From the NCBI RefSeq assembly GCF_947495025.1, contig NZ_CANLXG010000002.1:994124-1058123 (forward strand): DNA of 64,000 nt, read 5' to 3'. Under the pieces are notes generated by a model. It saw only the letters and a program-made list of their open reading frames with translations. It did not search any database and was not told where the DNA came from. Of this stretch, positions 25,506 to 44,087 are shown in pieces. The position numbers were made by a program, and so were the translations under genes. Numbering within the stretch: position 1 is the first letter of the stretch; each line of letters opens with the position of its first letter. This stretch comes from an uncultured Roseobacter sp. (GTDB taxonomy: Bacteria > Pseudomonadota > Alphaproteobacteria > Rhodobacterales > Rhodobacteraceae).

Positions 25506-28500
25506 CTATGGCATCGGCCCGTTTTTTATTCTCTGGACGAAATTGTAAATCATGATGCTGCCCAGCAGGGCGATCAGGATCCACATAAGAATGCCCGGCC
25601 AGACCGCGCGCGGGTCGCAGAAACTGAGCACCAGCAGCGTGGCGACAAGCACCAGGTTGCCGATCCACACCAGCCCGATGGTCAGGAAGCGAAACGCGAT
25701 ACGATCGACGATACCGCTGTAGAAAGACCGCCAGGTCAGAAGTACAACAATTGCGAAAAGTGCCATGGCTGCCAGTGTAATCGCCGCGCGGTTGGGGCAG
25801 GAAAAGTCGCACACCCGGCTGACGGGCCCCTCGAAACTGGCCAGCAGAGGTGGCAGACGCGGTGTGTTGAAATGCCTGGCAATGATACCTGCAATGGCCG
25901 CCGTCTCGACACCCGCCGGGTCCGGCACCGGCCAGAAACCCACACCCGAGAAGTTGTCCTTGAAATAGACCACGTCATCCTCAAACTGTGAGAAGGGCGC
26001 AGGCGTGCGCGTATCGACCGCGTTTGCCTTGACCGATGTCAGGACAAATTCATGCCCCCCCGGGGGCAGCACCGGTATGATGCTGCGCAGCACGCTGGCG
26101 CGCAACTCGCCCTGAAACAAACCCTGTTCCATGCGGTAGCGCAGGCCCTTCTTGGCGTCTGTGGTGGGGCGCTCGAGAAAGAGCAGAATTTTGTCGATAA
26201 TCCTCGTGGTTTCACGGCCAAGGTCTCTGGGGCCATCCGTCTGCGAGGTGTCTGCATTCTCGTCAGCAAGTACCAGTGGGCTGGGTATCAGCAATTCATA
26301 GAGTTCATCAAAGAGCGGCTGGTCGAGACTTTCACCGACGAGCGGGAAGTCAAACGCCACATTGATGCGCAGACGGTCCCGGTTCGGCAGCGCTTCGTAC
26401 AGATCCTTGACGATGCTGATGAGGATTTTCATTTCATCCCCGCCCAGATCGTTGCCCTGATAACCGTGGAAAATGAGCGTCACACCATCGGGCTGAACCG
26501 GATCAAAGAGCGTCGGGACAGCGTCCCGGATATGTCCGAGTTCATAACTCTCGAACCGTTCGAAAGGGGCCATTTCGGTGGCAATGTCGTCGATCACATC
26601 CTCGATTGTCGCATCGTCCCACTGTGTCCAGTCCCGCAGATCAAACGCGAGGTCTGCGCGCGCCCGGAACTGGTGTGCTGAATTCACAAAGTCACGTTTC
26701 GCTGCCCGCCACTGTTCGCGGTTGCGCAGGGTCACCCGGGTACTGCCCGCATCCGAGAACTCCAGCCCGTAAAATGCGACCTGCCCTGTGAGGCTGAAAT
26801 CGATCTGCGTTCGGGCCGGTGGCGCGGGTGGTGCATCTTCTCCGTCCGCGCCCGCCGCGGGTTCTGTACCTGCACGTACGGGCGTCGGCGCAAACCAGAA
26901 CGGGTAAAAGCCGTATACCTGCAGATCTGCTTCGCGTCGTTCCGGGACACATTTACAGTCCGGCACCGCAAAATCGCCGAACACCCGGGTAATCTCGGGA
27001 TCCGTGATGTTTTTCTGCGCCTTCTGGATAATGCGTTCTGTCACGAACTGGGAAAATGGCACCTGGCCGTCGATCACCGGAATATTGGCAAGCGCTTCCT
27101 CGAACAGCCGATAGCTGGGGTAAGCAACGCCGTTCAGTGTCCGGAGCCGGTCGGGCAGATCCTGCGCGGTGGCGTCGGCAACAGCCGCTCGCACATAGGG
27201 CAAAGCCAGAATTTCGTCGCGCAGAGCAGGTGTAAGAGACCATTCCGACGATACGGCGGGTTCTATGATCGCAATCTGGGTGTCGACGGTGCGCGCCACC
27301 TGTCGGGCGGCGGTCGCCTCAAGTGCTGAGCGTACCTGGGCCCGCATCAGCTCGGGCACGGTAGCATCGGCAATCGGTGTGGATTTGATGGCGTCCGACA
27401 GTTCGGGGTTGTCGATGGCGCTTTCCACAGCGTCGTCTGTAGCCTCGGTCACCGTGATCTTTGGAGTCGGATCGGGCGCGCCCTCTTCTTCATCCTCCAG
27501 TTCGATCAGCGCCGTATCCGTGGGCGGCGGTACGGGCTCGGAGGCGGCAGCCAGGGTGTCGGCGGCGGCGGTGATCTCCTCTCCGACCAGAGCTTCCTGT
27601 GCGCTGACGAGACCTGCGCGGATGCGGTTTACCAGCTCTGCGCGTGTCGGAGTGCGGGCGGGGGCCAGCTCTGTCAGTACGGGGACTGCAGTCTCAAGCT
27701 CTGCGCGTGCCAGCAGGGCGTCAGTCGCATCCGGTTTCAGCAGGAAAGTCAGCGGCAGAGTCTCAGGCCCGGTGACCAGCTCTTCGATCTCGGCCAGTAC
27801 GCAGTCGTCAAGGTCGCTCGCCAGTGCCGGCCGCAACTGGCGCCAGAGCGCCTGTGGACTGTCAAAACCACCGTTCTCCCCGGCAAAAGCGTCCAGCTTG
27901 GGAGACAGGGAGACGAAAAATTCGAGCGATGCAATGTCTTCATCGTTGAGCGCATACCAGGTAAGCGTCTGTTCCTGCGGGCGTGGCGAGCAGGGGCCAC
28001 CTGTGTACACGGTAGAACCATCGCCGCCTTCGTTCTGTGCGTTGTAGTCATCAATCAGGGTGAGCACCGCAGGCAGCGTCCCTGCGAGACGGCGCAGGCG
28101 TTTTCTGGTGCCCTCGTCTTCCTGTGTGTCACCTGCCGCGATCCAGCCGAGGAAATCGTCACTCTGCAGCACACGCAGAGCGCCGACGCGGCTGGAACCC
28201 AGACGGCCCAGACGCTCCATGGCCTGTTGCCAGGCGTCGATACCTCCGGCGACGGGCAACATCGCACAGATGTCGGCCTCGGTTTTGTCCTTGAAGAGCC
28301 TGGTCAGGGTGGCAAGTGCCCGCGCTCCGTCGGGGTATTGTGCCAGCGCACCCCCCGGATCTTCGCAGGTGAAGGTTACAGCACTCCGTCCCAGTGCAAG
28401 GGTCTTCATTGCTGTGGTACCTGCAAGCCGCAGACCCAGTGTGCTGCGTGCCAGGGCATCGCCACCGGCCGTGAGATCAAGTTCAAAGAGCTGCTCTGAC

Positions 28501-28823
28501 CAGCCTGGGAAATTTTGCTGCAGGCGTGCATACTGCACCGCCAGTTGCAGCGTCGAGCGCACGTCATCCAGCCCCGCCGGGCGCGGTACATCCTCGCAAA
28601 GCTGTTGCAGTTTCTGACGCGTATAGGTGCCAAGCCGTCCGTCTGTCAGCAGGGCGTTATTGTCATTGTAGGCTGTTCGCAGACCCAGCTGAACTTCGCC
28701 GATACTCGCGGGAACCAGTTTGTCCTCTGTCAGGTCCATCAGGTCGCTGCAGGCGGCAGCGAGGACTGTACTCATCGAAAAATACAGGATTATTGCAGAC
28801 AGAAAACGGCTGAGACGGGTCAT
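25506..28823 (-). CDS. Large eCIS-associated envelope protein (signal peptide, PG-binding-like motif, GH18-like barrel lacking catalytic motif, C-terminal TM helices)
   Basis: 1105 aa; leader MTRLSRFLSAIILYFSMSTVLAAAC; EVQLGLRTAY...DGRLGTYTRQKL; QVYGFYPFW and PDGVTLIFHGY; about three hydrophobic segments at the C-terminus; ATGA overlap with the ATPase gene. Confidence 0.6.
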   Translation of the reverse strand: MTRLSRFLSAIILYFSMSTVLAAACSDLMDLTEDKLVPASIGEVQLGLRTAYNDNNALLTDGRLGTYTRQKLQQLCEDVPRPAGLDDVRSTLQLAVQYARLQQNFPGWSEQLFELDLTAGGDALARSTLGLRLAGTTAMKTLALGRSAVTFTCEDPGGALAQYPDGARALATLTRLFKDKTEADICAMLPVAGGIDAWQQAMERLGRLGSSRVGALRVLQSDDFLGWIAAGDTQEDEGTRKRLRRLAGTLPAVLTLIDDYNAQNEGGDGSTVYTGGPCSPRPQEQTLTWYALNDEDIASLEFFVSLSPKLDAFAGENGGFDSPQALWRQLRPALASDLDDCVLAEIEELVTGPETLPLTFLLKPDATDALLARAELETAVPVLTELAPARTPTRAELVNRIRAGLVSAQEALVGEEITAAADTLAAASEPVPPPTDTALIELEDEEEGAPDPTPKITVTEATDDAVESAIDNPELSDAIKSTPIADATVPELMRAQVRSALEATAARQVARTVDTQIAIIEPAVSSEWSLTPALRDEILALPYVRAAVADATAQDLPDRLRTLNGVAYPSYRLFEEALANIPVIDGQVPFSQFVTERIIQKAQKNITDPEITRVFGDFAVPDCKCVPERREADLQVYGFYPFWFAPTPVRAGTEPAAGADGEDAPPAPPARTQIDFSLTGQVAFYGLEFSDAGSTRVTLRNREQWRAAKRDFVNSAHQFRARADLAFDLRDWTQWDDATIEDVIDDIATEMAPFERFESYELGHIRDAVPTLFDPVQPDGVTLIFHGYQGNDLGGDEMKILISIVKDLYEALPNRDRLRINVAFDFPLVGESLDQPLFDELYELLIPSPLVLADENADTSQTDGPRDLGRETTRIIDKILLFLERPTTDAKKGLRYRMEQGLFQGELRASVLRSIIPVLPPGGHEFVLTSVKANAVDTRTPAPFSQFEDDVVYFKDNFSGVGFWPVPDPAGVETAAIAGIIARHFNTPRLPPLLASFEGPVSRVCDFSCPNRAAITLAAMALFAIVVLLTWRSFYSGIVDRIAFRFLTIGLVWIGNLVLVATLLVLSFCDPRAVWPGILMWILIALLGSIMIYNFVQRIKNGPMP

Positions 28824-30163
28824 GACGTGCGTCCTTCTTTGCGCATTTCAGCGGTAACGGCGGATTTGATATCTTCTGCGGCAACGGAAGATGCGCCGCG
28901 TCGCAGCGCGCCCACGGCCGCATGGCGCACCACATTGGTGATGGCCGCACCGGACAGATCATGGGTGCGCGCGAGTGCCCTGAGGTCGATGTCCTCCGCA
29001 ACGGGCACACCAGAAAGGGTGTTTTGCCACAGCTGAAGTCTTTCGGGTACGGTCGGCCGGGCAAACCCGATGGCACTCTGGAACCTCCGGAAGAAGGCAT
29101 CATCTATGTTGCTGCGCAGGTTACTCGCAAGGATCACAAGGCTCTGGCACTCCTCAATGCGCTGCAGCAGGTAAGAGACTTCCTGGTTTGCGTGACGGTC
29201 ATTTGATGATGCAGTTGCCGTGCGGGTGCCAAAGAGCGCGTCGGCCTCATCAAAAAACAGAATCCAGTCCCGTTCAGCGGCCATGTCGAAAATCAGACCG
29301 AGGTTCTTTTCCGTTTCGCCAATATATTTGGATACAACCATCGACAGGTCGACGCGGTAAACATCGAGACCTGTGCGCTGACCCAGCAGGGTTGCTGTCA
29401 GTGTCTTGCCTGTGCCCGGGGGGCCGTAGAAAAGCGCCTTGTAGCCTCTCCCGAACTGTCGTTCGAGCCCCCAGTCCTGCAGGATCGTATCGCGGTTTTC
29501 GAGCCATGCGAGGATGTGCTGCAACTGGTCCCGCACGCCGGCGGGCAGAATGAGGTCCTCCCAGCCGAGTTTCGTCGTCAGCCGTCTGGCGGGAAAATTC
29601 GGCGAGAAATCGGGCCGGGGTGGTTTCCCGTCACAGAGTGCGACAACGCGGTGTACCGGGATGTCGAGGCGGCTGACGTGGGAGGGCGGTGTCTGGGTGA
29701 GCGTGACGCCCGCACTGACCCGCAGCGGATTATCAGGTTCAAACAGCCGCATGGCGGCGATCCGTGCGGCAGTATCCGTGCCCGCGATCAGAAAGAGCGC
29801 CGTTTCAACCGAGGGCACAAAGGCGGTACCCGCGTCCGGGTGCCCGCCAAACTGCGAAAATGCGCGGTCAATGGCAGAGTTTTTCACATAGAACGGGTCG
29901 AGTACTGCTGAGTTGACATGCGGGGCGACGGCCAGGGCCAGCACCAGCCGCGCCGTAGCATTCATGCCAGTGCGCGCGATCAGATCACCCAGTGCAGTTC
30001 CCCGTGGCTGCTCTGGTGCAGGCGGCACAGTGAAAGGTGCCGTCGTGCCATCGAAGAAATGTCCCAGGCGGGCTTCGATCACCTGTTCAAGCCAGCGGAT
30101 CTCATGCGAGACAGCATCGGCATGTGTTGCCTGTGCTGTGCCGGGAGGGGAGGAGTCATTCAT
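28820..30163 (-). CDS. eCIS AAA+ ATPase (Afp15/Pvc15-like)
   Basis: Walker A GPPGTGKT, VDLSMVVSKYIGETEKNL, Walker B LFFDEADALFG, DRHANQEVSYLLQRIE. Confidence 0.93.
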   Translation of the reverse strand: MNDSSPPGTAQATHADAVSHEIRWLEQVIEARLGHFFDGTTAPFTVPPAPEQPRGTALGDLIARTGMNATARLVLALAVAPHVNSAVLDPFYVKNSAIDRAFSQFGGHPDAGTAFVPSVETALFLIAGTDTAARIAAMRLFEPDNPLRVSAGVTLTQTPPSHVSRLDIPVHRVVALCDGKPPRPDFSPNFPARRLTTKLGWEDLILPAGVRDQLQHILAWLENRDTILQDWGLERQFGRGYKALFYGPPGTGKTLTATLLGQRTGLDVYRVDLSMVVSKYIGETEKNLGLIFDMAAERDWILFFDEADALFGTRTATASSNDRHANQEVSYLLQRIEECQSLVILASNLRSNIDDAFFRRFQSAIGFARPTVPERLQLWQNTLSGVPVAEDIDLRALARTHDLSGAAITNVVRHAAVGALRRGASSVAAEDIKSAVTAEMRKEGRTS

Positions 30164-33100
30164 CGCTGTCCTCCCGCCAGGTCACATGACAGGGCAGAGG
30201 CATCCACGGCAGAGTTACCGGCCCCGGACTCCAGGGCAGGCTGTCGAGAAGCATGTCGAACGGGCCGGGCGTGACCCGCAGATGCGCACCGGTGGCATCG
30301 AGCCGCAGCGTACCGGCGCGGCGCAGGAATGCTTCGCGCAACCCGTCCGGAGACGTAGCCCCCAGCCGGGACCATCTTTCAATCACCGAGCGCAACAACC
30401 CATCCATCAGAGCATCGGCATCAGCATCGGGTTTGGTTGGAAGGGGCAGCGGAGCCGCCGGATCGACCCCCAGCAGGATATTGTGCAGCGGGTCGGGCGC
30501 GGGCACGGTCGTGTCCGGAGTGCCGGCAAGAGCCAGCAGAAGACCACGCGCAAGCGGCAGATCACCGGTTTCCAAGGCGCGCCCCTGTCGTTCTATGCCC
30601 GTCCGGTCAAACAGCAATGCATAGAACGGATGCAGCAGCACCAGTCCGGCCGTTTCAGAAACCAGCAGCGTTTCACCGTCCGTTTCGTTTGTCGCCTGAG
30701 CGGGTATCGCGACGGGCCGTGCACTTTCCTGGCCAGAGGGTGCGGCAGTGTCCGGGGTGCTGGTCAAAAGTGTTTCCAGCGCAGCCCGTGTCTGTCGATG
30801 CAGCCCGGTGGCGTCCGGACCCGGAGCAGTACCAAGGCGCGCGGAGACCGTGCGCAGGGCAAGAGTCCGGCGGTTCTCATCAGGCTCCAGCTGCGCAAGC
30901 AGATCGTCCAGTCGACGGCTCAGCGGCAAACCGGGCGGAGGCGCGCTTGTCGCATTGTGCAACAGGGCGCACATGACCGCAAAACGCGACTGCGGGTCGT
31001 CGTGCGCACGGCCCGGCCAGAGCTGTTCCACGAGGCGCAAGGCTGCCACCACAGTGCTGTCAGATGCGGGCAGTGTGACTCTGGCGATCTGTTCAAGCTG
31101 ACTGATGAGTTCCTCGTCGGTGCGTTCTGTGCTTTCAGGTTCGTCGGCTGTAACAGGTACTTTCCGCGTCGCGGCACGATAACCCGGCGTATCCGGAACG
31201 TGTCCGTCCCGTGTCGCAACCGGTTGGGTGATATGATCTTCTGTGCTGTTTTCGCTGGCGAGGGCCCCGGTGCCGGAACGTGACACTGCAGTCTCCGACA
31301 CTGCGCCGTGCGCTCGTACCGGGGTTTTGGCATCCGGGTTTTTACGATCAGAAAAATGCGCCTCAGCTGTTGCGATCCTGAGGTCGTCCGAACGCCCCGA
31401 AGTGGTATCCTGTTCCCCTGCCCGTGTTAAATCCTGATCTGGCGGATCAGATGCTTCGTCAGAAACATACGGATTCGTATGTTTCTTGCTCTTTTGTCCT
31501 GGCTGTTCAGCAGGTGCAGCACGCTGGATTGTTGTGTCTTCGCCGGCGTTCTGGCGTGCACCGGAAATTTCCCGATCCTCGTGGTCATGCACTGATCGGT
31601 GCGTGTGGTTATCCCAAACGTCGGATGAACCTTCCCGGGTCGACGGTATGTCGCCTGAATTTTCATGGTTGTTGCCCCGGGCCGCATCCGCCTCACGGCC
31701 GGATTCCCCGCCCACGGGCAGGGTCAGGGAACGCCCGGAAACCTGCGTTTGCGCATTGGCAGCGCCGAGAACGCGCAGTATTTCGCTCCGGGTCAGTCCA
31801 GCGATGCGCAGGACTTCGGTCAACGGGTCGATCGCCAGGGCGTCCGGTGTTTCACCGGCATCCGGATCATCTGCATCTTCCACCGCCAGACTGGCAAGGT
31901 CGTTGAAACGGGCGTTTTCAGTCGTGAAGCCTGTTTCGGGTTCGGCGCGGGCAAGTTTTTCGAAATCGAGTGTCCTGTCTGCAAGAAGCAGCAGCGTGGC
32001 TTTGCGGAGAGCTTCGGCCGGGTGATCGGCTTCTTCGGACAGGTCGCTCAGTCGGTCCCTCAGCAATCTGGCTGCCGGCGACAGAAGTCCGTGCGCAAGA
32101 ACCAGGAGTTCCGGTGTATCAAGCAGGGCCAGCGATGCCGTGAATGCATCCGGTTCTGACGCCTGAAAAGCACGCAGCGTTTCGGAATCAAGATCGTTTC
32201 CGCGCAGCATCGCCGTGTGGTCAGACGCGGGGTCAGAAAATTGTCTGTTCCGGGAAGAGAGCGCGGTCAGCGGATCCGGAGCGACACGGCCGCTTTTGCC
32301 AGCATTCCGGATTTCCGGGTTTTCTTGCAGCGGGTTTGAGACGCGTTTTGTGTCTGTGTCATTATTCGCGGAGCGCCGGCGGCTCTCATCGCCCGGAACG
32401 TCCCATGGAGAGCCATCCGCGGCCTGACTCAGCTTGCCCGAGGCTTGTCGCCCGTGCGCATCGGACAAGCTCCCTCCATTGCGCTCGGAAGGTGTGGCAG
32501 CATTTCCTGTGGCCGGGGGTGCAGTACTGACCACAGGCAGCAACGTTATCAGCCGGGCGATCAGACGCGATGCCGTTTTCTGTGCGTCTTCCCGGCTCGT
32601 TCCGCGATGAACCAGACCTTCGATGATGCGCTTTTCTGCGAACTTGAGGTCAGTCAGTTTGTCTGCACTCAGGATGTTCTGCCAGTCGATACTGTCAGAG
32701 ACAGTCCGGCCCTTTAACCGTTGACCCGGCAGAGATGTGGAAAGCGCTTTGTCCGCCAGACGGCGCAGTAACACAGACACACCAGCGGAAGTTTTAGCCA
32801 GACGGTCGATCTCGTCAGCAAACAAAGTACCTTCATCAGAGTTCCCCGGCACTCTTTCGGACCCGAAAGTTGGATCAGGCACATCTGCCCGGGTATCTGA
32901 CGGGATCACGCTTTTTCTTTCGCGATCAGCAGTGTCCAGAACACTGATCAGCTCGGACTGCAAAGCCGGGTCGGTTGCGAGCGGGGAAAGTCCGGCGATG
33001 CGCAGGGCAGCTAGTGCACCGGCCTCTTCCGGATACTCTTCCAAACGCAAGCGTATGGTTTCCTGAGAAGGCGTGGCCCCGAAGCGATTTGCCCAGTCAA

Positions 33101-33566
33101 AAAATCCCCGGGCCCGGGCGATGAGAACGTTGTGGCGTGCATCGTCCCAGCCGACCGGCGTTGACCGATTATCGCTGGGCGCAGAGACAACCGGTGAGGC
33201 CGAGGACACCGGCGATGCCAGTTTTTTCTCGGAAGGCGAAGCCTGTTCAGGATCTGCATTGAGAAACCGGCTGAGCGCGGCCTCCAGTTTATGCGCCAGA
33301 ATCCAGCGAACTTCAGACCACACAGGATCATCAGGCCAGTCGCCCAGATCAATGTCAATCTGTGGCGCATAAAGCGTCACCTCAGACCAGCGGGGGTGGT
33401 CGAGCACCTCTGACAATGCAGGCAGTATTTCCTTACGGACTGCCGCCAGAAGTTGCTCTGGCGATGAAAGCGGACCCTGTGCGGCAGTAATCTCAAAGGC
33501 TGCATCGACCGATGCAATGACCGCGTTCACCTGTTGAGGGGGTGATATGGGAGCGGCAGACGGCAT
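30156..33566 (-). CDS. Contractile injection system tape measure protein (Afp14-like)
   Basis: N-terminal IDIDLGDW segment and C-terminal AGLVLLHPF...LLRSVIERWSRLG..SPDGLREAFLRRAG...DMLLDSLPW...LPWM...VTW block typical of CIS tape measures; position between baseplate and ATPase. Confidence 0.85.
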   Translation of the reverse strand: MPSAAPISPPQQVNAVIASVDAAFEITAAQGPLSSPEQLLAAVRKEILPALSEVLDHPRWSEVTLYAPQIDIDLGDWPDDPVWSEVRWILAHKLEAALSRFLNADPEQASPSEKKLASPVSSASPVVSAPSDNRSTPVGWDDARHNVLIARARGFFDWANRFGATPSQETIRLRLEEYPEEAGALAALRIAGLSPLATDPALQSELISVLDTADRERKSVIPSDTRADVPDPTFGSERVPGNSDEGTLFADEIDRLAKTSAGVSVLLRRLADKALSTSLPGQRLKGRTVSDSIDWQNILSADKLTDLKFAEKRIIEGLVHRGTSREDAQKTASRLIARLITLLPVVSTAPPATGNAATPSERNGGSLSDAHGRQASGKLSQAADGSPWDVPGDESRRRSANNDTDTKRVSNPLQENPEIRNAGKSGRVAPDPLTALSSRNRQFSDPASDHTAMLRGNDLDSETLRAFQASEPDAFTASLALLDTPELLVLAHGLLSPAARLLRDRLSDLSEEADHPAEALRKATLLLLADRTLDFEKLARAEPETGFTTENARFNDLASLAVEDADDPDAGETPDALAIDPLTEVLRIAGLTRSEILRVLGAANAQTQVSGRSLTLPVGGESGREADAARGNNHENSGDIPSTREGSSDVWDNHTHRSVHDHEDREISGARQNAGEDTTIQRAAPAEQPGQKSKKHTNPYVSDEASDPPDQDLTRAGEQDTTSGRSDDLRIATAEAHFSDRKNPDAKTPVRAHGAVSETAVSRSGTGALASENSTEDHITQPVATRDGHVPDTPGYRAATRKVPVTADEPESTERTDEELISQLEQIARVTLPASDSTVVAALRLVEQLWPGRAHDDPQSRFAVMCALLHNATSAPPPGLPLSRRLDDLLAQLEPDENRRTLALRTVSARLGTAPGPDATGLHRQTRAALETLLTSTPDTAAPSGQESARPVAIPAQATNETDGETLLVSETAGLVLLHPFYALLFDRTGIERQGRALETGDLPLARGLLLALAGTPDTTVPAPDPLHNILLGVDPAAPLPLPTKPDADADALMDGLLRSVIERWSRLGATSPDGLREAFLRRAGTLRLDATGAHLRVTPGPFDMLLDSLPWSPGPVTLPWMPLPCHVTWREDSDE

Positions 33567-35692
33567 CAGGCGACCTGCTCTGTATCGGATGCCTGTTCCG
33601 GTTCTGCGGAATTGGGGCTGTCCCTGTCCGCATCGGTTCTTTCACTGGCGTCAAAGTCCTGCCAGTGGACGCGGACATGGATATGCGCCGGTGCGAGCTG
33701 CGCGACCAGACCTTCGACATAGTTACGAAAGCTCTGCATCGCGCAACGCGCTGTCCAGCCGGGCAGCATCAGATCAGCGGTATGCGCGCTGCCACTGCCA
33801 TCCTCTTCCAGTATAATCCGCTCCGACAGATGGGCGGCCTCGGATGCACGATGCAGGTAATTCCACGTCGCACGCAGGCGCGCCACCGTTTCCATCGCTT
33901 CGTCCTTGTCTCTGATAACCGCACAACGCTGCAGGCCCGTGCCATTGCCAGGGTCATACAGGACCTGCCAGCTGCCACCGGGATACGGGACGATGGCAAG
34001 GCTGTCTGCGTCTGCAAGCCGCCGGAAATCCGCGCTGCACAATGCCCCGTCTGTGACAAAAGGCGACAGTTCCGCAAGGCGCTCCGGTGAGAGCCGTTCC
34101 GCATGGTCCCTCAGAGGCACGAGCATATCGAAAGGGTTGAGGGCACCAACCATGATGATCCGGTCATCGTCCTGTGCAACCGGGTCAGCGGAATCATCAA
34201 GATGCAGACCAAACCGGCGCAGCACCGAAGTCTGATCGCTGTTCTCGGTCAGGTTCAGGTCGGCCAGAATGGCAAGTTCAGCAAGAAATCCACCCGGCCC
34301 TTCGGGCCCCGGACCTGTCGCCCGTGCACTGTTCAGCCAGGGCAGGGCAAAGAGATATTCCAGCCGCCATTCAATCGCAAACCGGTGCCGGGCGCGAACT
34401 GACATATAGTGATGCAGTCCACTGTGACGCGTGGCAGGCATTTCGGCACCCTGGAGCGCAATGAGGTAATCCAGCAGTTTCACGCGCATCCTGTGTGCCA
34501 CCGGATCATCTGTCTTCTGATGCGGCCGGGCCGTGAATATCCGGGGCAGGGCATCCAGATCCGCGATCATGTCGCGCAGAACACCGTCGATCGCCTCCCG
34601 ATATTCCGAAATCAGATCACCTGGGTCGTGCATTGAATAACCCTCGGCGCGGTACAGCCCGGGCAAAAGGCTGTCCACGTGTGACTGACCAAACTGCCGC
34701 CGCCTGCCGGGCCGCATGACATCCCAGTCCGGACCGTCGACATGGTGCACTGCAGCAGCAATCGTTTCTGCAGCAATGCGGTTGTACTCTTCGCGGATAC
34801 GCGCCGGGTCAAGCGCCACCGCCGCGCCGTTCAGCGTCAGTGTCAGCCCGATCTGGTCGCGTGTCCGGGGCAGGACAGAGCGGTAGAAAACGGCGTCGCC
34901 GGCTGCGGGCATTTCCCGTGTGCCGGGCTGTCGCAGGCTGAACGCGCCGATATCCCGAACGCCGGGCAGTGCACGCAGATCATTGAGGTGCTCGCTGATG
35001 TCTCCGGGCTTGCCGACATCGGACCGCGCCGGTGCGAGCAGCCTCTCCGGCGCTTCCCAGACATCCGCACGCCGGGCCGCGTGATCTGCACGGGACGCGC
35101 CGCTGAGGATATCGGACACCTGATGATAGAGAGCCGCGGCCACTGTCTCAGGCAGGGCGGCCTCTGTGATTTCGACCTCACCGTGCAAAACAACCCGCAG
35201 GGGTCGGGCAATCACCACTGACCCCAGATCGGTACAGAGTGGTCGGGCGCGTCTGAACAAAGCGCGGAAAGTGCCGACAGCGTCCACGCCGGCGTCTTCC
35301 TCGCCAGAGGGAACCAGTATGACGTCCAGTCTTCCAGGTCTCGCGGGATCATGCGGCGCGATAACGACCCGTTCGATACCGGGGCATGTCCCTATCCATG
35401 TCTGCAGATCCTCGCGGCGGACCGGCATGCTGCCCAGCACTTTGCGCGGGCGGAACAGCGCAAGATCGTGAAAACAGAAGTGCCCGCGCGGATTGGTCAG
35501 CAGATCGCGCACCGGCAGCCCGGCCTGCCACGCCACCTGGCTGAGCGCAAAACAGGTCTGTTCGAGCAGCGTTACGCCCGGATCATGCAGGTTGTAATCC
35601 GTCCAGATATCGCCGGAGGCTTCTTGTGCATATTCAACGGCCGCGCGCCGCAGATCAGCAAAGGCAGTGAGGGGATCAGGCGACCTGGTCAC
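33566..35692 (-). CDS. eCIS baseplate protein (Afp12/Pvc12-like)
   Basis: N-terminal SGDIWTDYNLHDPGVTLLEQ motif, RARPLCTD and C-terminal LAPAHIHVRVHW. Confidence 0.88.
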   Translation of the reverse strand: MTRSPDPLTAFADLRRAAVEYAQEASGDIWTDYNLHDPGVTLLEQTCFALSQVAWQAGLPVRDLLTNPRGHFCFHDLALFRPRKVLGSMPVRREDLQTWIGTCPGIERVVIAPHDPARPGRLDVILVPSGEEDAGVDAVGTFRALFRRARPLCTDLGSVVIARPLRVVLHGEVEITEAALPETVAAALYHQVSDILSGASRADHAARRADVWEAPERLLAPARSDVGKPGDISEHLNDLRALPGVRDIGAFSLRQPGTREMPAAGDAVFYRSVLPRTRDQIGLTLTLNGAAVALDPARIREEYNRIAAETIAAAVHHVDGPDWDVMRPGRRRQFGQSHVDSLLPGLYRAEGYSMHDPGDLISEYREAIDGVLRDMIADLDALPRIFTARPHQKTDDPVAHRMRVKLLDYLIALQGAEMPATRHSGLHHYMSVRARHRFAIEWRLEYLFALPWLNSARATGPGPEGPGGFLAELAILADLNLTENSDQTSVLRRFGLHLDDSADPVAQDDDRIIMVGALNPFDMLVPLRDHAERLSPERLAELSPFVTDGALCSADFRRLADADSLAIVPYPGGSWQVLYDPGNGTGLQRCAVIRDKDEAMETVARLRATWNYLHRASEAAHLSERIILEEDGSGSAHTADLMLPGWTARCAMQSFRNYVEGLVAQLAPAHIHVRVHWQDFDASERTDADRDSPNSAEPEQASDTEQVA

Positions 35693-36552
35693 AGCAGCCC
35701 CGCATCGCGATCACTGTCTTCACGTGCGCCGGTCATCATACTGTCAAACCAAAGCTGGGTCAGGTAGTAGCGCACCACTTTGCCTTCGCCGAAATTCGCA
35801 TTGGTGCGCAGCTGCAGCCGGAAGTGGTGTTGCTGTGTGTCTGCAACCCAGCGCAGGCGCAGCCGGTCCGCATAGGAGCCATACATCGCCGTCTGCGTTT
35901 TGATAGAACGACGCCGGAACAGCCAGTTCAGGATGGGGTTGCGCGGATGATAGGCATTCATGGCGATGGCGTGCATCATTGAATATCGCCCCTTGCGCGG
36001 CTCACCCCCCGTACCAGCGGTGACCTCAAAACACTGACAGCCGGTCAGCGGTTGGGTGATGTCGTGCCATTTGCCATCCGCTCTGACATGCGGAATGCGG
36101 TGGCTGGTCACCCCGATCCTGCCACGCATCCGTGCCACACCATCGACATCGAGGCGCCAGTCCGGTGCTTCGTGTGCAACCCCGACGCGCCCGTCCCGCG
36201 TGATACTGAGCCCCGCCGGGCCCGGTCCGTCGGCGGTGTTTTCTTCCTCTGCAGCGCCTGGCGCGAACTCGAGCGCTGACTTGCCCTGGTCCGGCCGGAA
36301 ATGCAGTGCGCCGGGCGCATCACCGTGTTCCAGCACCCAGGACGGTTTGGGTGTTCCCAGACCCTGATACAGGCTTAGAACACGCAGGGAGGAACCAACC
36401 GAGTTCAGCCGCAACCCGTCTGCGTCCGTTTTGGCAAAGCCGTCATCAACCTGATTAACGGTGCTGTCGATCAGGTCCCGGTATTCAGCCGCCGTGGGCA
36501 GAGCGCCGCTGCGGAAAAAGGATTTGAGAGTAGCGCGATCTTGTTTTGTCAC
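35689..36552 (-). CDS. Short eCIS tail fibre / fibre-attachment protein (Afp13-like)
   Basis: N-terminal RATLKSFFRSGALPTAAEYRDLIDST as in CIS fibre N-termini; one GRVGV..EAPDWRLDVDG fibre-type repeat; GTGA overlaps on both sides. Confidence 0.65.
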   Translation of the reverse strand: MTKQDRATLKSFFRSGALPTAAEYRDLIDSTVNQVDDGFAKTDADGLRLNSVGSSLRVLSLYQGLGTPKPSWVLEHGDAPGALHFRPDQGKSALEFAPGAAEEENTADGPGPAGLSITRDGRVGVAHEAPDWRLDVDGVARMRGRIGVTSHRIPHVRADGKWHDITQPLTGCQCFEVTAGTGGEPRKGRYSMMHAIAMNAYHPRNPILNWLFRRRSIKTQTAMYGSYADRLRLRWVADTQQHHFRLQLRTNANFGEGKVVRYYLTQLWFDSMMTGAREDSDRDAGLL

Positions 36553-39500
36553 GGGATATTCCTCTGGCCGACGATGAGCATGTCGCCGACAGTCAGGTTG
36601 CCGATGCCGGCAGCTGAGGGGGCTTCATCATCAATTTCTGGCAGGATTGTCAGGATATGGTCCGCCGTCGACAGCGGCAGGCTCCATGGAAATCTGGGGG
36701 TCAGCACAGGGCCATAGGTGCCGCCGCGCGGGTCGTTTACCTCCTGAGCCGTGTCCAGAAGCTGATAGCTCCGGGCATCATCACCCACGAGGTGCAGAAC
36801 AGAAAAATCGGTGATGTCATCGACATATGGCAGTGCTGCGATATGGGCGCGCAGCATGTGTACGTTCAGCGACCAGCCGAAGCGCGCAAGAGAATCGTCG
36901 GCAGTCCAGACAGAGAGGTACCGGGCCAGGTCGCGACGCAGCATCTGCGCCATCGCCCCGTTTTCACGATCTGCGGTGACCGAAAGCTTGGCACGTACCT
37001 GCAGCCGTTCAAAGGTTGGATTAACAACATCCAGCTGCGCCTCTTCACTCACATAGTCGCTCAGCCAGTCACGGATGCGTTCAAGGGTGGCCACGTCAAA
37101 CAGGGCGGGCGCAGGCGTATGCAGTGCAGGATCTGCTGTGGGTTTCCGGGTCACAACCAGAGTGACAGTTCCCGGAGCAGGCGCCGGAGTTTTCCGGCTG
37201 AGATGCGGCAGACATTTTGCCATCCAGACCTCAGGGAATTTTTCGAGCACCATCCGCTCCATGTCCCAGGGGCGCACACCGCGACGACGGTGACGCAGCC
37301 TTTCGCCCACGCGGGCGGTAAACGCATCGGGAGGTTCCGGCGGTCGTATTTCCGCGGGTGTCACGATTTCGGACGGCGGAGAGAGGCCCGGCTGCGCCTG
37401 AGAAAAGGACCATGTGCGTGGTGTTCCATGGTTCTTCCAGGTGTCATCACGCCTGCAGACCCAGACACCGTTGACGGAAACCCTGCTCAGCGCGGGGAAG
37501 ATTTCGAGGTGTGGGCGCGTTGCTACGGCGGCCAGCCAGACACCGCCAGCGGGCATTTCGGGCGAATGATCCGTTGCATCGTCGGGCAGGTCGATCACCA
37601 CAAGGCCGGACCGCATCAGCCCGGCGGTGGTATCAGAGGAAAGTGCCGTTTCCGGCAGGTCGGCCCATCCGTGCGCGGACAGGTATTTCCACCGTATCGG
37701 GTTTGCATCAGGCACCAGGCGCAGATGCCCCGACTGGGCCATATCGAAGGCCAGTGTTACGGGGCCGGTGGCATCAGCACCCGTCAGCTGAAAGGCCACA
37801 TGTCCATAACCCATACGTTCGGGAAACAGCCGGATGCCGCGCAACATACGCTGTGGAAAGACCCCGACACGGCCAAAAGGCCCGACCTGGTGTACTGTTT
37901 CCCCAGGACGGGCGGTGTCCGGAGCATTCAGCTCGATCGTCGCTTCTGCGGTGTATGCCAGTGAGAAACGGCTGATTTCGGGCACATAGGGCGCTGGTGG
38001 AATTTTCCGGGTGCCCAGCGGGAGAAGACGCGGGCGCATCGCGTTCACGAGGGCAACCGGATACTGCCCTGCCAGAAAACCATCGGCCGTGCCGGCAAGC
38101 CGCATCCGAATCATGCCTGCACGTACGGTCTGGCGTGACTGGTATTCGGCTGCTGTCACGACGCCCGTCGCGGGGATAGAGTGGCCGGACACCTGTCCGG
38201 TGAATTCCCACGCCGGCAGCAGCGCACCCGTGACGCCCTCGGTCTGAAACAGCGGAAGCGGTGCATCGCTGACCGGCTTCCATCCGTCCCCGCTGAGATA
38301 TTCGACGGTCAGTTCAGGCGCAGGCACCTCTATGTTACGACCATATGCTTCATAGTGGGCGTCAAAGCCACCAAGCGGATCGGGCATACCGCTCCAGCTG
38401 AGGCTGATACTGACCCGGGTGACCGGCTTACGTCCCATTTCAGCGCAACCTACCTGGAAGGTCGCGCCATCGCGGGGTCGAGGGCCAAAAGGTCTGAACG
38501 TCTGATCGGTCACGACGGGCCCGGTGTCCGAAAAAGCAGCCAGCCTCCGCAGACCGGTGACCTGCGTGCGTATCGCGACGGTTTCGATCGTGTAGCTCTC
38601 GAAGAACGAAACCGGGCAAAGCCGCGAGTCGGTGGCGTACCGCAGGGCCAGCACAGGGGCATGCTCCGGACCGGTCAGCGCCGGTGCGCTTTCGTCATAG
38701 CGCAGGCTCAGCGTGATGCCTCCAGCGGCCTGGGCATGCCGGATCGGCAGAACCTGCATGATGTCCGGTCGCAGAGGGCCATCTTCGGTGGTGACTGTGA
38801 TGTCAAAAGCGTCGCCGAGCAGGCTCTGAAACACATCTTCGGGCGGGTAGTCGATTGTACCGTCGGGTTTCTGGGAGAAAGCCGCAAAGATCATCGAGCT
38901 CTGGCCGTGGTCTGTATCGGTTTCCGTGCTGCGTCCTGTAAGCTCGGGGCGAAACCGCTGCACCAGTGCATAGATCTGGTCCCAGTAGTCACCTGCCGGA
39001 AAGTCATACTGCTCGATGAGCGACAGCGTCACAATGCGCCCCAGCAGGAGGCGCAGTTGTCCTGGTCTTTCAACCCGGTTCATCAGATAGCGATAGACAA
39101 GTGACAGGGAGGTCGTCTGGTTCGTTTCAGCAGCGAATTCTGTCACCCCGTGCGTCAGCTCTTCAGCGGCGGTTTCCGTTTTTCCTGTGCAGAACGCCCT
39201 GACCAGCGCAGTATCTGCCGCGAGCGCAAGCCGGACTTCCGGATCTGCCCATTCGGGTGTTGTGGTCAGGTTCCGCCGCAGGTCTGGTATTACGCTCGCC
39301 CGTACCGAGGCCTTTCGCCGCTCGGCGCGCTCTCTGATCTCGGCGCGTGTCAGGGGCCGGGATCCGGCGGGCAGGTTTGAGGCCCGCCTCATGTGCAGGG
39401 TGACTTCTATCCGCCGGGTCCCCTCCGCCAGCGAAAGCACAGGCGAGGCAATATCGAGGCCAGTGTCGAGTGGCAGTTCGGATCCGCTGGCAAACAACGT

Positions 39501-40550: not shown

Positions 40551-40551
40551 A

Positions 40552-41544
40552 TCATTCGGCCTCCGCATCGTCTTCGGCTGCCGGGGGCAGGTCTGACAGG
40601 AAAACACCCGTCAGGGTTCCCGCGTCGCTCTCGATCAGGAACGTCCCACCGGCAGAAACAGGCGGTGCGGGGCGTTCTTCGGGCGCGAACTGTGCGGACT
40701 CAAAAACTGCCCGGAAAGGCACGGCGTCACGCCCCGTTTTAAAGGGCGGCAGTAGCGGGCCATCGCCGTCCTGCACGGAAACCACGCCTTTGCCGCTGCT
40801 GACGAACCGTCCGCCGCACTGAAACAGGTTGGTCCACGTCAGTCTGTCAAATGGCAGATCTGCGTCAAATCCACTGGCTGCAAAAGCACCCCGGCCTGAA
40901 CCGTACCCCGCCTGAAGTGAAAAACGGCCCCTGGCCTTTGTGACAGTAACACCGCCGTCGGTATCAGGGGTGATCAGTTCCAGCGCAATTGGCCCCGAAA
41001 AGGTCACCGAGCCGGTCGATGGAATTTCCACCTCGGCCGCACCCGGCCCGATGACCATCGGCCCGCTGAAAGCCAGATCAAAAATATTGTAGGAAACATC
41101 ATAGACGTTGGGCAGCGCGCCGGTTGTGCCAAACCCGCCACGTTCGGTTGCATCCGCCTTGCGCGACCCAACACCCGGCGTGCTGTCGCCGGGCCGGTCC
41201 TCGACCTGCGCAGACCGGTCAATAAAGGAAAACCGTGGCGCAAGTCCCAGGGTCGAACTGCTCCCGATCAGCAGAACGGTATCATAGTCATAGCCTGCGG
41301 TAGCGGACCGGCGCAGAAGCGAGCCCGCCATTTCCTTGTCATCAGCGTCTTCTGCCAGGCAGGGTCCGGCAGCCGGGGCGATACCGATAATACGTGTCGT
41401 CTCGGTCGACCGCAGAAATTCGGGCAGGGCCAGTTCCGGCAGCTCAGGCAGCGGTATTTCTTCCAGCACTGAACAGCTGCCAAGGGTCAGTGCGACCCCA
41501 AGACCGGCGACCCGGCCAGCTGCTGATATGTGGAACCCTGCCAT
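40552..41544 (-). CDS. Putative lipoprotein with TbpB/fHbp-like beta-barrel, inside the baseplate genes
   Basis: Lipobox LGSC after a hydrophobic leader; IPSTGSVTFSG...AGGTFLI...GTLTGVFLS pattern; GAGGA RBS; 1-bp gap to the downstream baseplate ATG. Confidence 0.55.
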   Translation of the reverse strand: MAGFHISAAGRVAGLGVALTLGSCSVLEEIPLPELPELALPEFLRSTETTRIIGIAPAAGPCLAEDADDKEMAGSLLRRSATAGYDYDTVLLIGSSSTLGLAPRFSFIDRSAQVEDRPGDSTPGVGSRKADATERGGFGTTGALPNVYDVSYNIFDLAFSGPMVIGPGAAEVEIPSTGSVTFSGPIALELITPDTDGGVTVTKARGRFSLQAGYGSGRGAFAASGFDADLPFDRLTWTNLFQCGGRFVSSGKGVVSVQDGDGPLLPPFKTGRDAVPFRAVFESAQFAPEERPAPPVSAGGTFLIESDAGTLTGVFLSDLPPAAEDDAEAE

Positions 41545-41550
41545 GCGTCC

Positions 41551-41988: not shown

Positions 41989-41991
41989 GGT

Positions 41992-44081: not shown

Positions 44082-44087
44082 GATCCC

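What the first reader, a model, noticed from the sequence alone, without database searches (positions are those of the whole stretch)
25506..28823. 1105-aa PG-binding / pseudo-GH18 membrane protein as last gene of the eCIS operon
Seen: ATGA-coupled to the ATPase gene. It has a signal peptide, then EVQLGLRTAY...DGRLGTYTRQKL (PG_binding_1-like), a long acidic linker, a GH18-like barrel (QVYGFYPFW at ~26900) and about three C-terminal TM helices. At ~26461-26492 PDGVTLIFHGY replaces the catalytic DGxDxDxE. Known: some CIS are membrane-anchored (Amoebophilus T6SS-iv, Anabaena thylakoid CIS) or use a membrane adaptor (Streptomyces CisA). Inference: a periplasmic anchor/adaptor or glycan (chitin-oligomer) sensor that positions or triggers the particle.
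Basis: partly seen in the sequence, partly recalled or inferred. Interest (0 to 1): 0.72.

Follow-up and report, generated by a model that had tools for sequence, protein, structure and literature searches.

The report
SalCis20-type membrane partner of injection system
This gene encodes an inner-membrane protein with a cell-wall-binding domain and a chitinase-fold domain lacking the catalytic residues; it always travels with one lineage of phage-tail-like injection machines and belongs to the SalCis20 family solved in Salmonella in 2026, so it is real but no longer undescribed.

Summary
Window 25506-28823 (-) is a 1105-aa ORF that overlaps the stop of the CIS AAA+ ATPase gene by ATGA. It has a signal peptide, a PG_binding_1-like domain, a mostly helical acidic region, a GH18-like barrel and three C-terminal TM helices.

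No Pfam, NCBIfam or PHROGs model hits it. Family profiles match PDB 9R9A, SalCis20 of the Salmonella salamae CIS (Ejaz et al., Nat Commun 2026): E 1.7e-11 for the Rhodobacterales-only profile, 2.7e-77 for the wide one. The sheath and the large baseplate protein also hit SalCIS chains best, so the operon is SalCIS-like.

The family reaches several phyla. In 71 of 80 loci it directly follows tape-measure and ATPase genes; the other nine are cut by contig ends.

The positions matching the GH18 DxDxE motif read T, I and H here. Across 122 relatives the first two are never Asp and the third is acidic in only 65.

I conclude it is an inner-membrane docking partner that engages peptidoglycan, and probably binds it without cutting. 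This scan has already reached the same reading on other genomes. Verdict: new member of a known kind.

The parts
25506..28823 (-). Whole gene: 1105-aa SalCis20-family (Cis20-like) inner-membrane protein
   Evidence: ORF. The Rhodobacterales-only profile A1 hits PDB 9r9a_B (SalCis20) at E 1.7e-11 in four collinear segments. The wide profile A2 hits it at E 2.7e-77.
28752..28823 (-). N-terminal Sec-type signal peptide (residues 1-24), ending ...VLAAA|C
   Evidence: Hydrophobic segment 7-29. SalCis20 has a Sec signal cleaved at residue 42. The conserved Cys25 lies several residues after the likely cleavage site in distant relatives, so a disulfide role is likelier than lipidation. A lipobox-like reading of LAAAC is not excluded.
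28536..28718 (-). PG_binding_1-like domain (residues ~36-96)
   Evidence: hhalign against genuine PG_binding_1 domains: E 1e-5 / 82% (Rhodobacterales columns) and E 2.4e-13 / 98% (94 wider relatives). PF01471 is sub-threshold in 5 of 10 distant relatives. No Pfam hit on the window protein itself.
26964..28526 (-). Acidic, mostly helical periplasmic region (residues ~100-620) with three conserved Cys pairs; variable in length across the family
   Evidence: AF2 predicts helices at pLDDT about 80-90; only 436-448 falls below 50. Composition and Cys positions. The N-terminal part varies from about 0 to 800 aa among relatives.
25869..26957 (-). CxC motif plus GH18-like (beta/alpha)8 barrel (residues 623-985)
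   Evidence: Foldseek: top hits are GH18 (Ym2 2e-6, Ym1, insect chitinases, ChiB, EndoS2, AMCase, BT1282). The A2 profile aligns beta1-beta5 to PF00704-bearing YaaH-like proteins. hhalign against a genuine GH18 alignment gives E 0.0016 in the same register.
26460..26492 (-). Beta4 segment PDGVTLIFHGY, which occupies the place of the GH18 DGxDxDxE motif
   Evidence: Register: family DGVTLyFD aligns with GH18 DGIDIDWE / DGINLDFE. Across 122 relatives, position 782 is T in 108 and never D; position 784 is Y/I/V/F and never D; position 786 is D44, P21, E21, H15.
25536..25811 (-). CxxxCPNR motif and three transmembrane helices (residues 1005-1096), with an invariant CD in the short periplasmic TM2-TM3 loop
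   Evidence: Hydropathy. AF2 helices 1012-1033, 1051-1069, 1075-1101. C1005, C1009, P1010, R1012, C1069 and D1070 are nearly invariant family-wide. SalCis20 shows three TM helices per monomer in cryo-EM.
25509..25535 (-). Short predicted cytoplasmic C-terminal tail VQRIKNGPMP
   Evidence: The last residue is Pro in 119 of 122 relatives, and the tail ends P-x-P in 75 of 122. A cytoplasmic location follows from signal peptide + three TM helices + positive-inside residues (inference).
28820..30163 (-). CIS AAA+ ATPase (Cis15-like), translationally coupled to the gene above
   Evidence: PF00004 1.3e-26 and AAA_lid_3. The same 4-nt overlap occurs in Rhodovulum, Paracoccus and Roseobacter sp. EG26 loci.
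30156..49565 (-). Rest of the SalCIS-like structural operon: cap (Pvc16_N), 244-aa protein, sheath, two gp19-type tubes, CIS_tube, VgrG-like spike, PAAR, gp25, 330-aa protein, 1352-aa baseplate protein, 287-aa and 708-aa proteins, 1136-aa tape measure
   Evidence: Pfam hits. Sheath's best PDB hit is SalCis2 9r9h at E 4.5e-168, against tCIS 4e-96 and AlgoCIS 2e-95. The 1352-aa protein's best hit is SalCIS baseplate chain 9rce_A at E 5e-81, against AlgoCIS 2e-45.
54292..58151 (+). Divergent putative cargo cassette, ending in a DUF4157/eCIS_core protein (57420-58151)
   Evidence: PF13699 at E 2.6e-10. The cassette was pointed out by first-reader notes e1-5276696 and e1-5276698. DUF4157/HExxH proteins are the SalCgo-type putative effectors of SalCIS.

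Best explanation
The gene encodes the Roseobacter-lineage version of Cis20 (SalCis20 family), the only integral membrane protein of a SalCIS-type, membrane-associated contractile injection system.

Shown here:
- It is homologous to SalCis20.
- It has the same architecture: signal peptide, large exported domain with a GH18/SleL-like barrel, and three C-terminal TM helices.
- It carries a PG_binding_1-like domain.
- It sits in strict synteny behind the tape-measure and ATPase genes wherever the family occurs.

Inferred mechanism:
- After Sec export, the N-terminal ~1000 residues lie in the periplasm.
- There the PG_binding_1-like domain and the GH18-like barrel hold on to the peptidoglycan glycan strand.
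- The three TM helices fix the protein in the inner membrane. They expose only a short Arg-rich loop and a conserved Pro-ended tail to the cytoplasm.
- That small cytoplasmic face, probably as a dimer, is the docking site for the baseplate or its fibre-like protein.
- The machine would thus be positioned, and perhaps licensed to fire, at a wall-tethered spot of the cell's own inner membrane.

The three positions that carry the GH18 catalytic Asp-Asp-Glu read Thr, Ile and His here, and they are not conserved in the family. The barrel therefore most likely binds the wall like a chitinase-like lectin and does not cut it.
For: Homology to SalCis20:
- Profile A1 (36 Rhodobacterales sequences only) hits PDB 9r9a_B at E 1.7e-11 over four collinear segments: the PG-binding-like part, the middle, CxC plus beta1-beta3, and beta8 plus the TM helices.
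- The wide profile A2 hits it at E 2.7e-77.
- 9R9A is SalCis20: a Sec signal, three TM helices, a periplasmic SleL-like fold, a homodimer, and signal-dependent membrane localisation.

The operon is SalCIS-like:
- The sheath and the 1352-aa baseplate protein have SalCIS chains as their best PDB hits by 35-70 orders of magnitude.
- A DUF4157 protein lies in a divergent cassette.

Association with CIS genes:
- In 401 Rhodobacterales genomes the gene is present in 15 and CIS_TMP in 18. All 15 have CIS_TMP about 1.4 kb upstream.
- In 80 loci from Alpha-, Beta- and Gammaproteobacteria, Nitrospirota, Phycisphaeraceae and Desulfocapsaceae, 71 show TMP-ATPase-Cis20 on one strand. The other 9 are truncated upstream. 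There is no counterexample.

Topology and folds:
- Hydropathy, conserved Cys pairs and Arg-rich loops support the topology.
- No other operon protein has a TM segment by the same test.

Loss of catalytic positions: 782 is never Asp, 784 is never Asp, and 786 is D44/P21/E21/H15 among 122 relatives.

In Salmonella, deleting SalCis13 and SalCis20 together gave the most intact extended particles. That fits a docking or trigger role.
Against: - No experiment exists for this organism.
- Binding to peptidoglycan is inferred, not shown.
- The authors of the SalCis20 structure favour a hydrolase that remodels the wall. SalCis20 itself reads DGITLDID at beta4, keeping Asp at the second and third catalytic positions.
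- Within the Rhodobacterales clade the ends of the barrel strands carry invariant or near-invariant polar residues: E688, D728, H786, D825, E884 and R885. These could form a non-canonical active site.
- The cytoplasmic surface is very small, about 14 + 9 residues. Docking of SalCIS to SalCis20 is so far only modelled.
- TM-scores to GH18 structures are modest, 0.40-0.45.
Confidence: 0.6

Rival explanations
1. It is an active peptidoglycan hydrolase, tethered to the inner membrane. It opens a local gap in the cell wall so that the injection system can be inserted or can fire through the envelope. This is the proposal of Ejaz et al. for SalCis20, by analogy with MltE for the T6SS.
For: - The barrel is related to YaaH/SleL-type GH18 proteins, and it is combined with a PG_binding_1-like domain, as in many wall hydrolases.
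- The SalCis20 paper reports conservation of several residues of the SleL catalytic core and a negatively charged pocket.
- The Rhodobacterales clade conserves E688, D728, H786, D825 and E884 at the barrel strand ends.
Against: - In the register supported, the residue matching the catalytic Glu is His here. Across 122 relatives it varies as D/P/E/H/R/N, including 21 Pro.
- The Asp that orients the substrate's N-acetyl group in GH18 enzymes is never present.
- No enzymatic assay has been published for any family member.
- PF00704 does not match.
Confidence: 0.2
2. It is a sensor. The periplasmic barrel binds a soluble glycan such as chito-oligosaccharides or released muropeptides, and passes the signal through the three TM helices to trigger firing.
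For: - Several GH18-fold proteins without catalytic residues act as lectins; Ym1 and Ym2 are the top fold hits.
- Streptomyces CisA is proposed to sense signals through its periplasmic domain.
- The TM2-TM3 loop (CD) and the C-terminal Pro are conserved.
Against: - There is no signalling domain on the cytoplasmic side, only about 23 residues.
- The nearest true GH18 relatives by sequence are wall-acting YaaH/SleL types, and a PG_binding_1-like domain is present.
- Nothing points to chitin. The genome has no PF00704 match at E<=1e-20.
Confidence: 0.1
3. It is a release factor. The three TM helices have the N-out/C-in topology of class I holins. Together with a wall-acting domain they would lyse the producer cell to set extracellular particles free.
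For: - Many eCIS are released by lysis (established knowledge of Afp, PVC and MACs).
- The operon has no recognisable holin, endolysin or spanin.
- The topology resembles class I holins (own knowledge).
Against: - No release of SalCIS particles or proteins was detected in Salmonella, and particles lie at the inner membrane.
- The catalytic residues are not conserved.
- Purified SalCis20 is a stable homodimer, not a hole-forming oligomer.
Confidence: 0.06
4. It is a cargo or immunity protein that merely sits at the usual place for effectors, behind the ATPase gene.
For: eCIS effectors are commonly encoded after the ATPase gene (established knowledge). No HExxH or other effector is recognisable in the minus-strand operon.
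Against: - A Sec signal peptide plus three TM helices is incompatible with loading into the tube lumen.
- The gene is conserved in order and architecture across several phyla, unlike variable cargo.
- A separate cargo cassette exists at 54-58 kb.
- SalCis20 is barely detected in purified particles: relative abundance 0.004.
Confidence: 0.03

Closest known systems
SalCis20 of the Salmonella enterica subsp. salamae CIS (PDB 9R9A; Ejaz et al., Nat Commun 2026;17:5272, PMC13266070; preprint 10.1101/2025.06.01.657177)
   Same: - Homologous by profile: E 1.7e-11 and 2.7e-77.
- Same architecture: Sec signal, PG-binding-like N-terminal part, CxC, SleL/GH18-like barrel, three C-terminal TM helices.
- Encoded in a CIS operon whose sheath and baseplate are each other's closest solved relatives.
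   Different: - Very distant: the window protein alone finds nothing in the PDB at E<=10.
- 1105 aa here against 864 aa.
- Beta4 reads DGVTLIFH here and DGITLDID in SalCis20. The Salmonella protein keeps Asp at the second and third catalytic positions, and this one keeps neither.
- Here the gene is translationally coupled to the ATPase gene. I could not fetch the Salmonella locus to compare gene order.
- The main text of the paper mentions no Rhodobacterales.
GH18 chitinase-like lectins and YaaH/SleL-type GH18 cortex-lytic enzymes (Ym1/Ym2; B. cereus SleL, 4S3J)
   Same: - A (beta/alpha)8 barrel with GH18-type strand motifs: VYGFYPFW at beta1, ...DW at beta3, DG at the start of beta4, G...W at beta8.
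- Ym2 and Ym1 are the top Foldseek hits.
- YaaH-like PF00704 proteins are hit by the family profile at E 1.4e-9 and 7e-8.
- Like Ym1/Ym2, it lacks the catalytic acids.
   Different: - No PF00704 match.
- hhalign to genuine GH18 is only E 0.0016 at 16% probability.
- TM-scores are about 0.4.
- It is anchored in the membrane and is part of a CIS operon.
CisA of the Streptomyces coelicolor CIS (PMC12237407)
   Same: A membrane protein encoded with a cytoplasmic CIS and required for its firing and membrane contact, with an extracytoplasmic domain proposed to sense or bind something. It is a functional analogue.
   Different: CisA has the opposite layout: a long disordered cytoplasmic N-terminus, one TM helix, a small solute-binding-like periplasmic domain and a predicted pentamer. 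There is no sequence relationship, and no signal peptide, GH18 barrel or PG_binding_1 domain.
T6SS envelope helpers (TagL/TssL peptidoglycan-binding domains; MltE/TagX wall-cutting enzymes)
   Same: Inner-membrane-linked proteins that tie a contractile machine to the cell wall or open it locally. This is the analogy drawn by Ejaz et al..
   Different: The folds are unrelated (OmpA-like domains, lytic transglycosylases). SalCIS-type operons lack the T6SS membrane complex.

Membership tests
SalCis20 (Cis20) family | Detectable sequence homology to SalCis20 (PDB 9R9A) | tested here: met
   Profile of 36 Rhodobacterales sequences: E 1.7e-11, four collinear segments. Wide profile: E 2.7e-77. The single sequence alone finds nothing.
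SalCis20 (Cis20) family | [quoted passage not shown] | tested here: met
   Hydrophobic segment 7-29 after a basic N-terminus, ending in AAA|C. This is a prediction only; no dedicated signal-peptide predictor was available.
SalCis20 (Cis20) family | Three C-terminal transmembrane helices | tested here: met
   Hydropathy and AF2 helices 1012-1033, 1051-1069, 1075-1101. This module is at the C-terminus in all 136 relatives that have a complete core.
SalCis20 (Cis20) family | Large periplasmic domain with a SleL/GH18-like hydrolase fold | tested here: met
   Foldseek: the first 32 hits are all GH18. The profile matches YaaH-like PF00704 proteins. 9R9A itself is not in the Foldseek library copy, which is dated 2026-04-08.
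SalCis20 (Cis20) family | Encoded in a SalCIS-type CIS operon | tested here: met
   Sheath's best hit is SalCis2 at 4.5e-168. The 1352-aa baseplate protein's best hit is 9rce_A at 5e-81. A DUF4157 protein lies nearby. A SalCis13 homologue could not be identified because no sequence was available.
SalCis20 (Cis20) family | Homodimer in the membrane; signal-dependent membrane localisation | not testable with these tools
   Needs purification or microscopy. Only single-chain prediction is offered.
Glycoside hydrolase family 18 (PF00704) | Match to the family model | tested here: not met
   No Pfam family at E<=1. hhalign against genuine GH18: not significant for the clade profile; E 0.0016 at 16% probability for the wide profile.
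Glycoside hydrolase family 18 (PF00704) | Catalytic DxxDxDxE motif at the end of beta4 | tested here: not met
   The motif reads DGVTLIFH here. Across 122 relatives, D2 and D3 are never Asp and the Glu position is D44/P21/E21/H15/R6/N5. Register.
Glycoside hydrolase family 18 (PF00704) | GH18-type (beta/alpha)8 barrel | tested here: met
   Foldseek best E 2e-6, probability 1.00 for the GH18 hits, TM 0.40-0.45.
PG_binding_1 (PF01471) | Match to the domain model or profile | tested here: inconclusive
   No Pfam hit on the window protein. Sub-threshold (14-21 bits against a cut-off of 23) in 5 of 10 distant relatives. Profile-profile E 1e-5 / 82% and 2.4e-13 / 98%. So it is homologous at profile level but below the family's curated threshold.
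Streptomyces CisA | Cytoplasmic disordered N-terminus, single TM helix, periplasmic solute-binding-like domain | tested here: not met
   Opposite topology and different domains.

The most novel reading that the evidence does not exclude
Across the whole family, the GH18 barrel may be a non-catalytic peptidoglycan lectin. Cis20 would then be the cell's own 'receptor' for its injection machine: a wall-tethered inner-membrane dock whose tiny cytoplasmic face (an Arg-rich loop plus the Pro-ended tail) is recognised by the fibre-like baseplate protein and licenses firing outward through the producer's envelope. That would make SalCIS-type systems a third, widespread way of coupling a contractile machine to a membrane, found in several phyla including marine Roseobacter. 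It would also revise the published 'hydrolase' reading.
Probability: 0.35. Interest if true: 0.6.

Novelty: new member of a known kind. Interest (0 to 1): 0.33.

Why it matters
SalCIS-type systems were described only in 2025-26 and from one enterobacterial example. This window shows the same membrane partner in a marine Roseobacter.

The searches here show two further points. First, the partner gene is a fixed component of the lineage, sitting behind the tape-measure and ATPase genes in every assessable locus across several phyla. Second, most members, including this one, lack the residues a GH18 enzyme needs.

That sharpens the open question of how these machines meet the inner membrane. A wall-binding dock and a wall-cutting enzyme predict different results in simple binding and muropeptide assays. 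Roseobacter species that carry the gene would be non-pathogenic hosts in which to test it. The value is incremental: the family, its fold and the anchoring idea are already published.

Tried and rejected
Searches that found nothing on the single protein:
- Pfam, NCBIfam and PHROGs: no family at E<=1.
- phmmer against PDB sequences: nothing relevant.

Dead ends:
- hhalign of the clade-only alignment against a genuine GH18 alignment was not significant, and its best local match was in a different register. Only the wider alignment gave the beta3-beta5 register.
- I searched the big protein database with the wide profile to retrieve SalCis20 itself, so that I could fetch the Salmonella locus for a gene-by-gene comparison. 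It returned mostly the Rhodobacterales clade and not SalCis20. Orthology of the 287-aa and 708-aa proteins to SalCis13 therefore stays open.
- The paper's supplements are not held.
- No model coordinates are returned by the tools, so disulfides, the pocket geometry and a superposition on 9R9A could not be examined.

Ideas considered and dropped:
- Outer-membrane lipoprotein tether through Cys25. LAAAC fits a permissive lipobox. However, 9 of 35 close relatives have Asn at position -1, and distant relatives place the Cys 3-8 residues after an AxA site.
- Homology to CisA: different architecture.
- An HExxH effector inside the minus-strand operon: none found.
- A second membrane protein in the operon: none by hydropathy.

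Full report
**1. The observation**

The window holds an ORF at 25506..28823 on the minus strand (1105 aa). Its ATG overlaps the TGA of the preceding ORF 28820..30163; the junction reads ATGA on the coding strand.

The preceding ORF is an AAA+ ATPase (PF00004, 1.3e-26). Upstream on the same strand lie:
- a CIS tape-measure protein, gp25, a VgrG-like spike and a CIS tube protein;
- two gp19-type tube proteins, a sheath and a Pvc16-type cap.

The context is therefore a contractile injection system (CIS) operon, and the gene is its last member on that strand.

- residues 42-72 for the PG-binding-like stretch;
- 635-643 (nt 26895-26921) for QVYGFYPFW;
- 778-788 (nt 26460-26492) for PDGVTLIFHGY.

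Hydropathy shows an N-terminal hydrophobic segment (7-29) and three C-terminal membrane helices. The Cys residues are conserved in pairs, as expected for an exported protein.

One detail needs correcting. The 'acidic linker' is acidic (17% D+E), but AlphaFold2 models it as confident helices. Only about 436-448 is disordered (mean pLDDT 83.5).

**2. What it is**

The single protein matches no model in Pfam, NCBIfam or PHROGs at E<=1, and nothing relevant in PDB sequences.

It has 35 full-length relatives at 36-88% identity. All that carry names are Rhodobacterales (Roseobacter, Paracoccus, Rhodovulum) (alignment A1).

A profile of these found 560 cluster representatives in a 1.8-billion-protein library. 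The shared part is the C-terminal ~550 residues: CxC, barrel and three TM helices. This core is always at the C-terminus, behind an N-terminal part of very variable length.

A profile of 122 of these relatives (A2) hits one solved structure, 9r9a_B, at E 2.7e-77. The Rhodobacterales-only profile still hits it at E 1.7e-11, in four collinear segments spanning the whole protein.

9R9A is SalCis20 of the Salmonella enterica subsp. salamae CIS (Ejaz et al., Nat Commun 2026, PMC13266070). As described there, SalCis20 has:
- a Sec signal cleaved at residue 42;
- a large periplasmic domain with a fold like B. cereus SleL;
- three TM helices;
- a homodimer in detergent;
- membrane localisation that depends on the signal sequence.

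The window's sheath has SalCis2 as its best solved relative, at E 4.5e-168 against about 1e-95 for tCIS and AlgoCIS. The 1352-aa baseplate protein best matches SalCIS baseplate chain 9rce_A, at 5e-81 against 2e-45. A DUF4157/eCIS_core protein of the kind called SalCgo in Salmonella lies in a divergent cassette at 57420-58151 (lead from first-reader notes).

The whole locus is thus a SalCIS-type system, and the gene is its Cis20.

**3. The domains**

*Barrel.* A barrel-only model (residues 615-1010; pLDDT 85, pTM 0.86) gives 38 Foldseek hits at E<=1e-3. The first 32 are all GH18: the non-catalytic lectins Ym2 and Ym1 first, then chitinases, EndoS2 and BT1282. GH84 follows. TM-scores are a modest 0.40-0.45; the full-length model gave the same ranking more weakly.

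At sequence level, the wide profile reaches two proteins that carry PF00704, one of them named YaaH-like. The E-values are 1.4e-9 and 7e-8 for a 5.8-billion-sequence database. The alignment covers beta1-beta5 and puts the family's DGVTLyFD on their DGINLDFE.

hhalign against an alignment of 17 genuine GH18 domains, which I took from proteobacterial genomes, gives the same register at E 0.0016 but only 16% probability. The clade-only alignment gives nothing.

*PG-binding region.* PF01471 is sub-threshold in 5 of 10 distant relatives. Profile-profile comparison with 26 genuine PG_binding_1 domains from related genomes gives:
- E 1e-5 / 82% for a plain column cut of A1;
- E 2.4e-13 / 98% for 94 wider relatives.

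The second set was cut out around a DG..G..T motif, which biases it somewhat.

**4. Catalytic residues**

In the supported register, the GH18 motif D-G-x-D-x-D-x-E corresponds to residues 779-786. The family keeps D779 (117 of 122) and G780 (118 of 122). For the three catalytic positions:
- 782 is Thr in 108 and never Asp;
- 784 is Tyr, Ile, Val or Phe and never Asp;
- 786, the catalytic Glu position, is D44, P21, E21, H15, R6, N5.

The window protein reads T, I, H. SalCis20 itself reads DGITLDID, so it keeps acids at the last two positions.

The canonical substrate-assisted GH18 mechanism needs the third Asp and the Glu (established knowledge of GH18). It is therefore not available to this protein or to most of the family.

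The residues that are nearly invariant family-wide are mostly aromatic or lie on helices alpha6 and alpha7: K891, K892, R895, Q946, D950, Y953 and N957. Inside the Rhodobacterales clade, however, the barrel strand ends carry conserved E688, D728, H786, D825, E884 and R885. A non-canonical site therefore cannot be excluded.

A side remark from my own knowledge: SleL/YaaH is usually described as a GH18 N-acetylglucosaminidase, not as the amidase stated in the paper.

**5. Association with the injection system**

In three distant loci (Rhodovulum steppense, Paracoccus marinaquae, Roseobacter sp. EG26) the order is TMP, ATPase, Cis20, with the same 4-nt overlap. The downstream flanks are unrelated.

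In a sample of 401 Rhodobacterales genomes the gene occurs in 15, spread over 6 genera. CIS_TMP occurs in 18.
- All 15 carriers have CIS_TMP about 1.4 kb upstream.
- Of the three CIS_TMP genomes without the gene, two have a different, short tape measure.
- The third has its tape measure at the end of a small contig.

These genomes are related, so this is not a statistical test.

A pattern scan of 185,579 species genomes found 158 loci, of which 80 were kept. They come from Alpha-, Beta- and Gammaproteobacteria, Nitrospirota, Phycisphaeraceae and Desulfocapsaceae.

A tblastn of the window's CIS proteins against these 80 shows TMP and ATPase directly upstream on the same strand in 71. These usually also carry the 708-aa, 287-aa and 1352-aa proteins. 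The remaining nine have less than about 1.7 kb of upstream sequence. I found no locus with the gene away from a CIS. Some loci have the sheath half on the opposite strand, as in the bidirectional Salmonella operon.

**6. How it probably works**

*Shown:* homology, architecture and association.

*Inferred topology:* signal peptide, exported bulk, TM1 out-to-in, Arg-rich loop inside, TM2, short CDP loop outside, TM3, and a 9-residue tail inside. This matches the cryo-EM and localisation data for SalCis20.

By the same hydropathy test, it is the only integral membrane protein of the operon. The last residue is Pro in 119 of 122 relatives, which suggests a recognised C-terminal peptide.

The Salmonella paper provides three relevant results:
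- CIS bundles are seen next to the inner membrane.
- No particle release was detected.
- The double deletion of SalCis13 and SalCis20 gave the best yield of intact, extended particles.

The most economical reading is therefore a wall-tethered inner-membrane dock for the baseplate or its fibre-like protein. Such a dock would position the machine and possibly license firing. Given the lost catalytic residues, I favour wall binding over wall cutting for this protein.

The rivals are laid out in the report sections:
- active hydrolase, which is the authors' own proposal;
- soluble-glycan sensor;
- lysis factor;
- cargo.

**7. Comparison and novelty**

The protein is a distant new member of the SalCis20 family, not a new kind.
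- It is not a GH18 family member by the family's own criteria (model match and catalytic motif both fail), although it has the GH18 fold.
- It is an analogue, not a relative, of Streptomyces CisA.
- No paper in the library links CIS and Roseobacter or uses the name Cis20 apart from the Salmonella paper.

This scan has already met the family on several other genomes and reached the same reading. I saw those notes only after my own identification, and they are not independent evidence.

- the Rhodobacterales clade;
- the strict TMP-ATPase-Cis20 synteny across several phyla;
- the family-wide count of the catalytic positions;
- profile-level support for the PG_binding_1 domain.

**8. Limits**

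- No coordinates are returned for the models, and 9R9A is absent from the Foldseek library copy. No direct superposition was possible.
- The Salmonella locus could not be fetched, and the paper's supplements are not held.

Noticed in passing
window 41992-42282 (-): A 96-aa PAAR-like ORF (MPPAARLTDMHTCP...VIIGG) sits between the VgrG-like spike gene and gp25. It falls below the ORF length cut-offs I used for listing.
   Followed up: partly
window 30156-33566 (-): The tape-measure protein is 1136 aa, but only its last ~200 residues match CIS_TMP (PF19268, positions 265-463). The first ~900 residues are long, Ala/Ser/Asp-rich and unmatched. A 2026 J Bacteriol paper (PMC13277306) describes CIS effectors related to tape-measure proteins, so this part might carry a payload function.
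   Followed up: no
window 40552-41544 (-): The 330-aa protein between gp25 and the 1352-aa baseplate protein starts MAGFHISAAGRVAGLGVALTLGSCSV..., a signal peptide with a lipobox. If it really is a lipoprotein, it would be a second exported component encoded inside the baseplate block (compare first-reader note e1-5276691).
   Followed up: partly
window 45898-48240 (-): The sheath protein is 780 aa against 519 aa for SalCis2. It carries an inserted cadherin-like domain (PF16184, 3.3e-9, residues 297-398).
   Followed up: partly
L001 13403-16648 (Rhodovulum steppense): In Rhodovulum, three further genes without Pfam hits (215, 595 and 241 aa) follow the Cis20 homologue on the same strand, before ribosomal protein genes. 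They may be lineage-specific cargo.
   Followed up: no
alignment A2, profile positions ~217-437 (middle region of gamma/beta-proteobacterial relatives): The repeated helical module of the variable middle region (pattern YxLTxxxLxxL...IPxxxLxxLxxLxxxxYxxxxxF) hits the insertion domain of Cas7-11 (PDB 7zol, residues 1062-1239) at E 2e-6. It is unclear whether this is a shared repeat module or a compositional effect.
   Followed up: no
loci L040, L041, L043, L052, L054, L082: In these Alpha- and Gammaproteobacterial loci, the cap-sheath-tube-spike-gp25 half of the system lies directly downstream of the Cis20 gene on the opposite strand (convergent halves). In the window the whole system is on one strand.
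   Followed up: partly
PMC13266070, section on SalCis20: The paper calls SleL an N-acetylmuramoyl-L-alanine amidase. To my knowledge SleL/YaaH is a GH18 N-acetylglucosaminidase, which matters for what 'conserved catalytic core' means in that paper.
   Followed up: no
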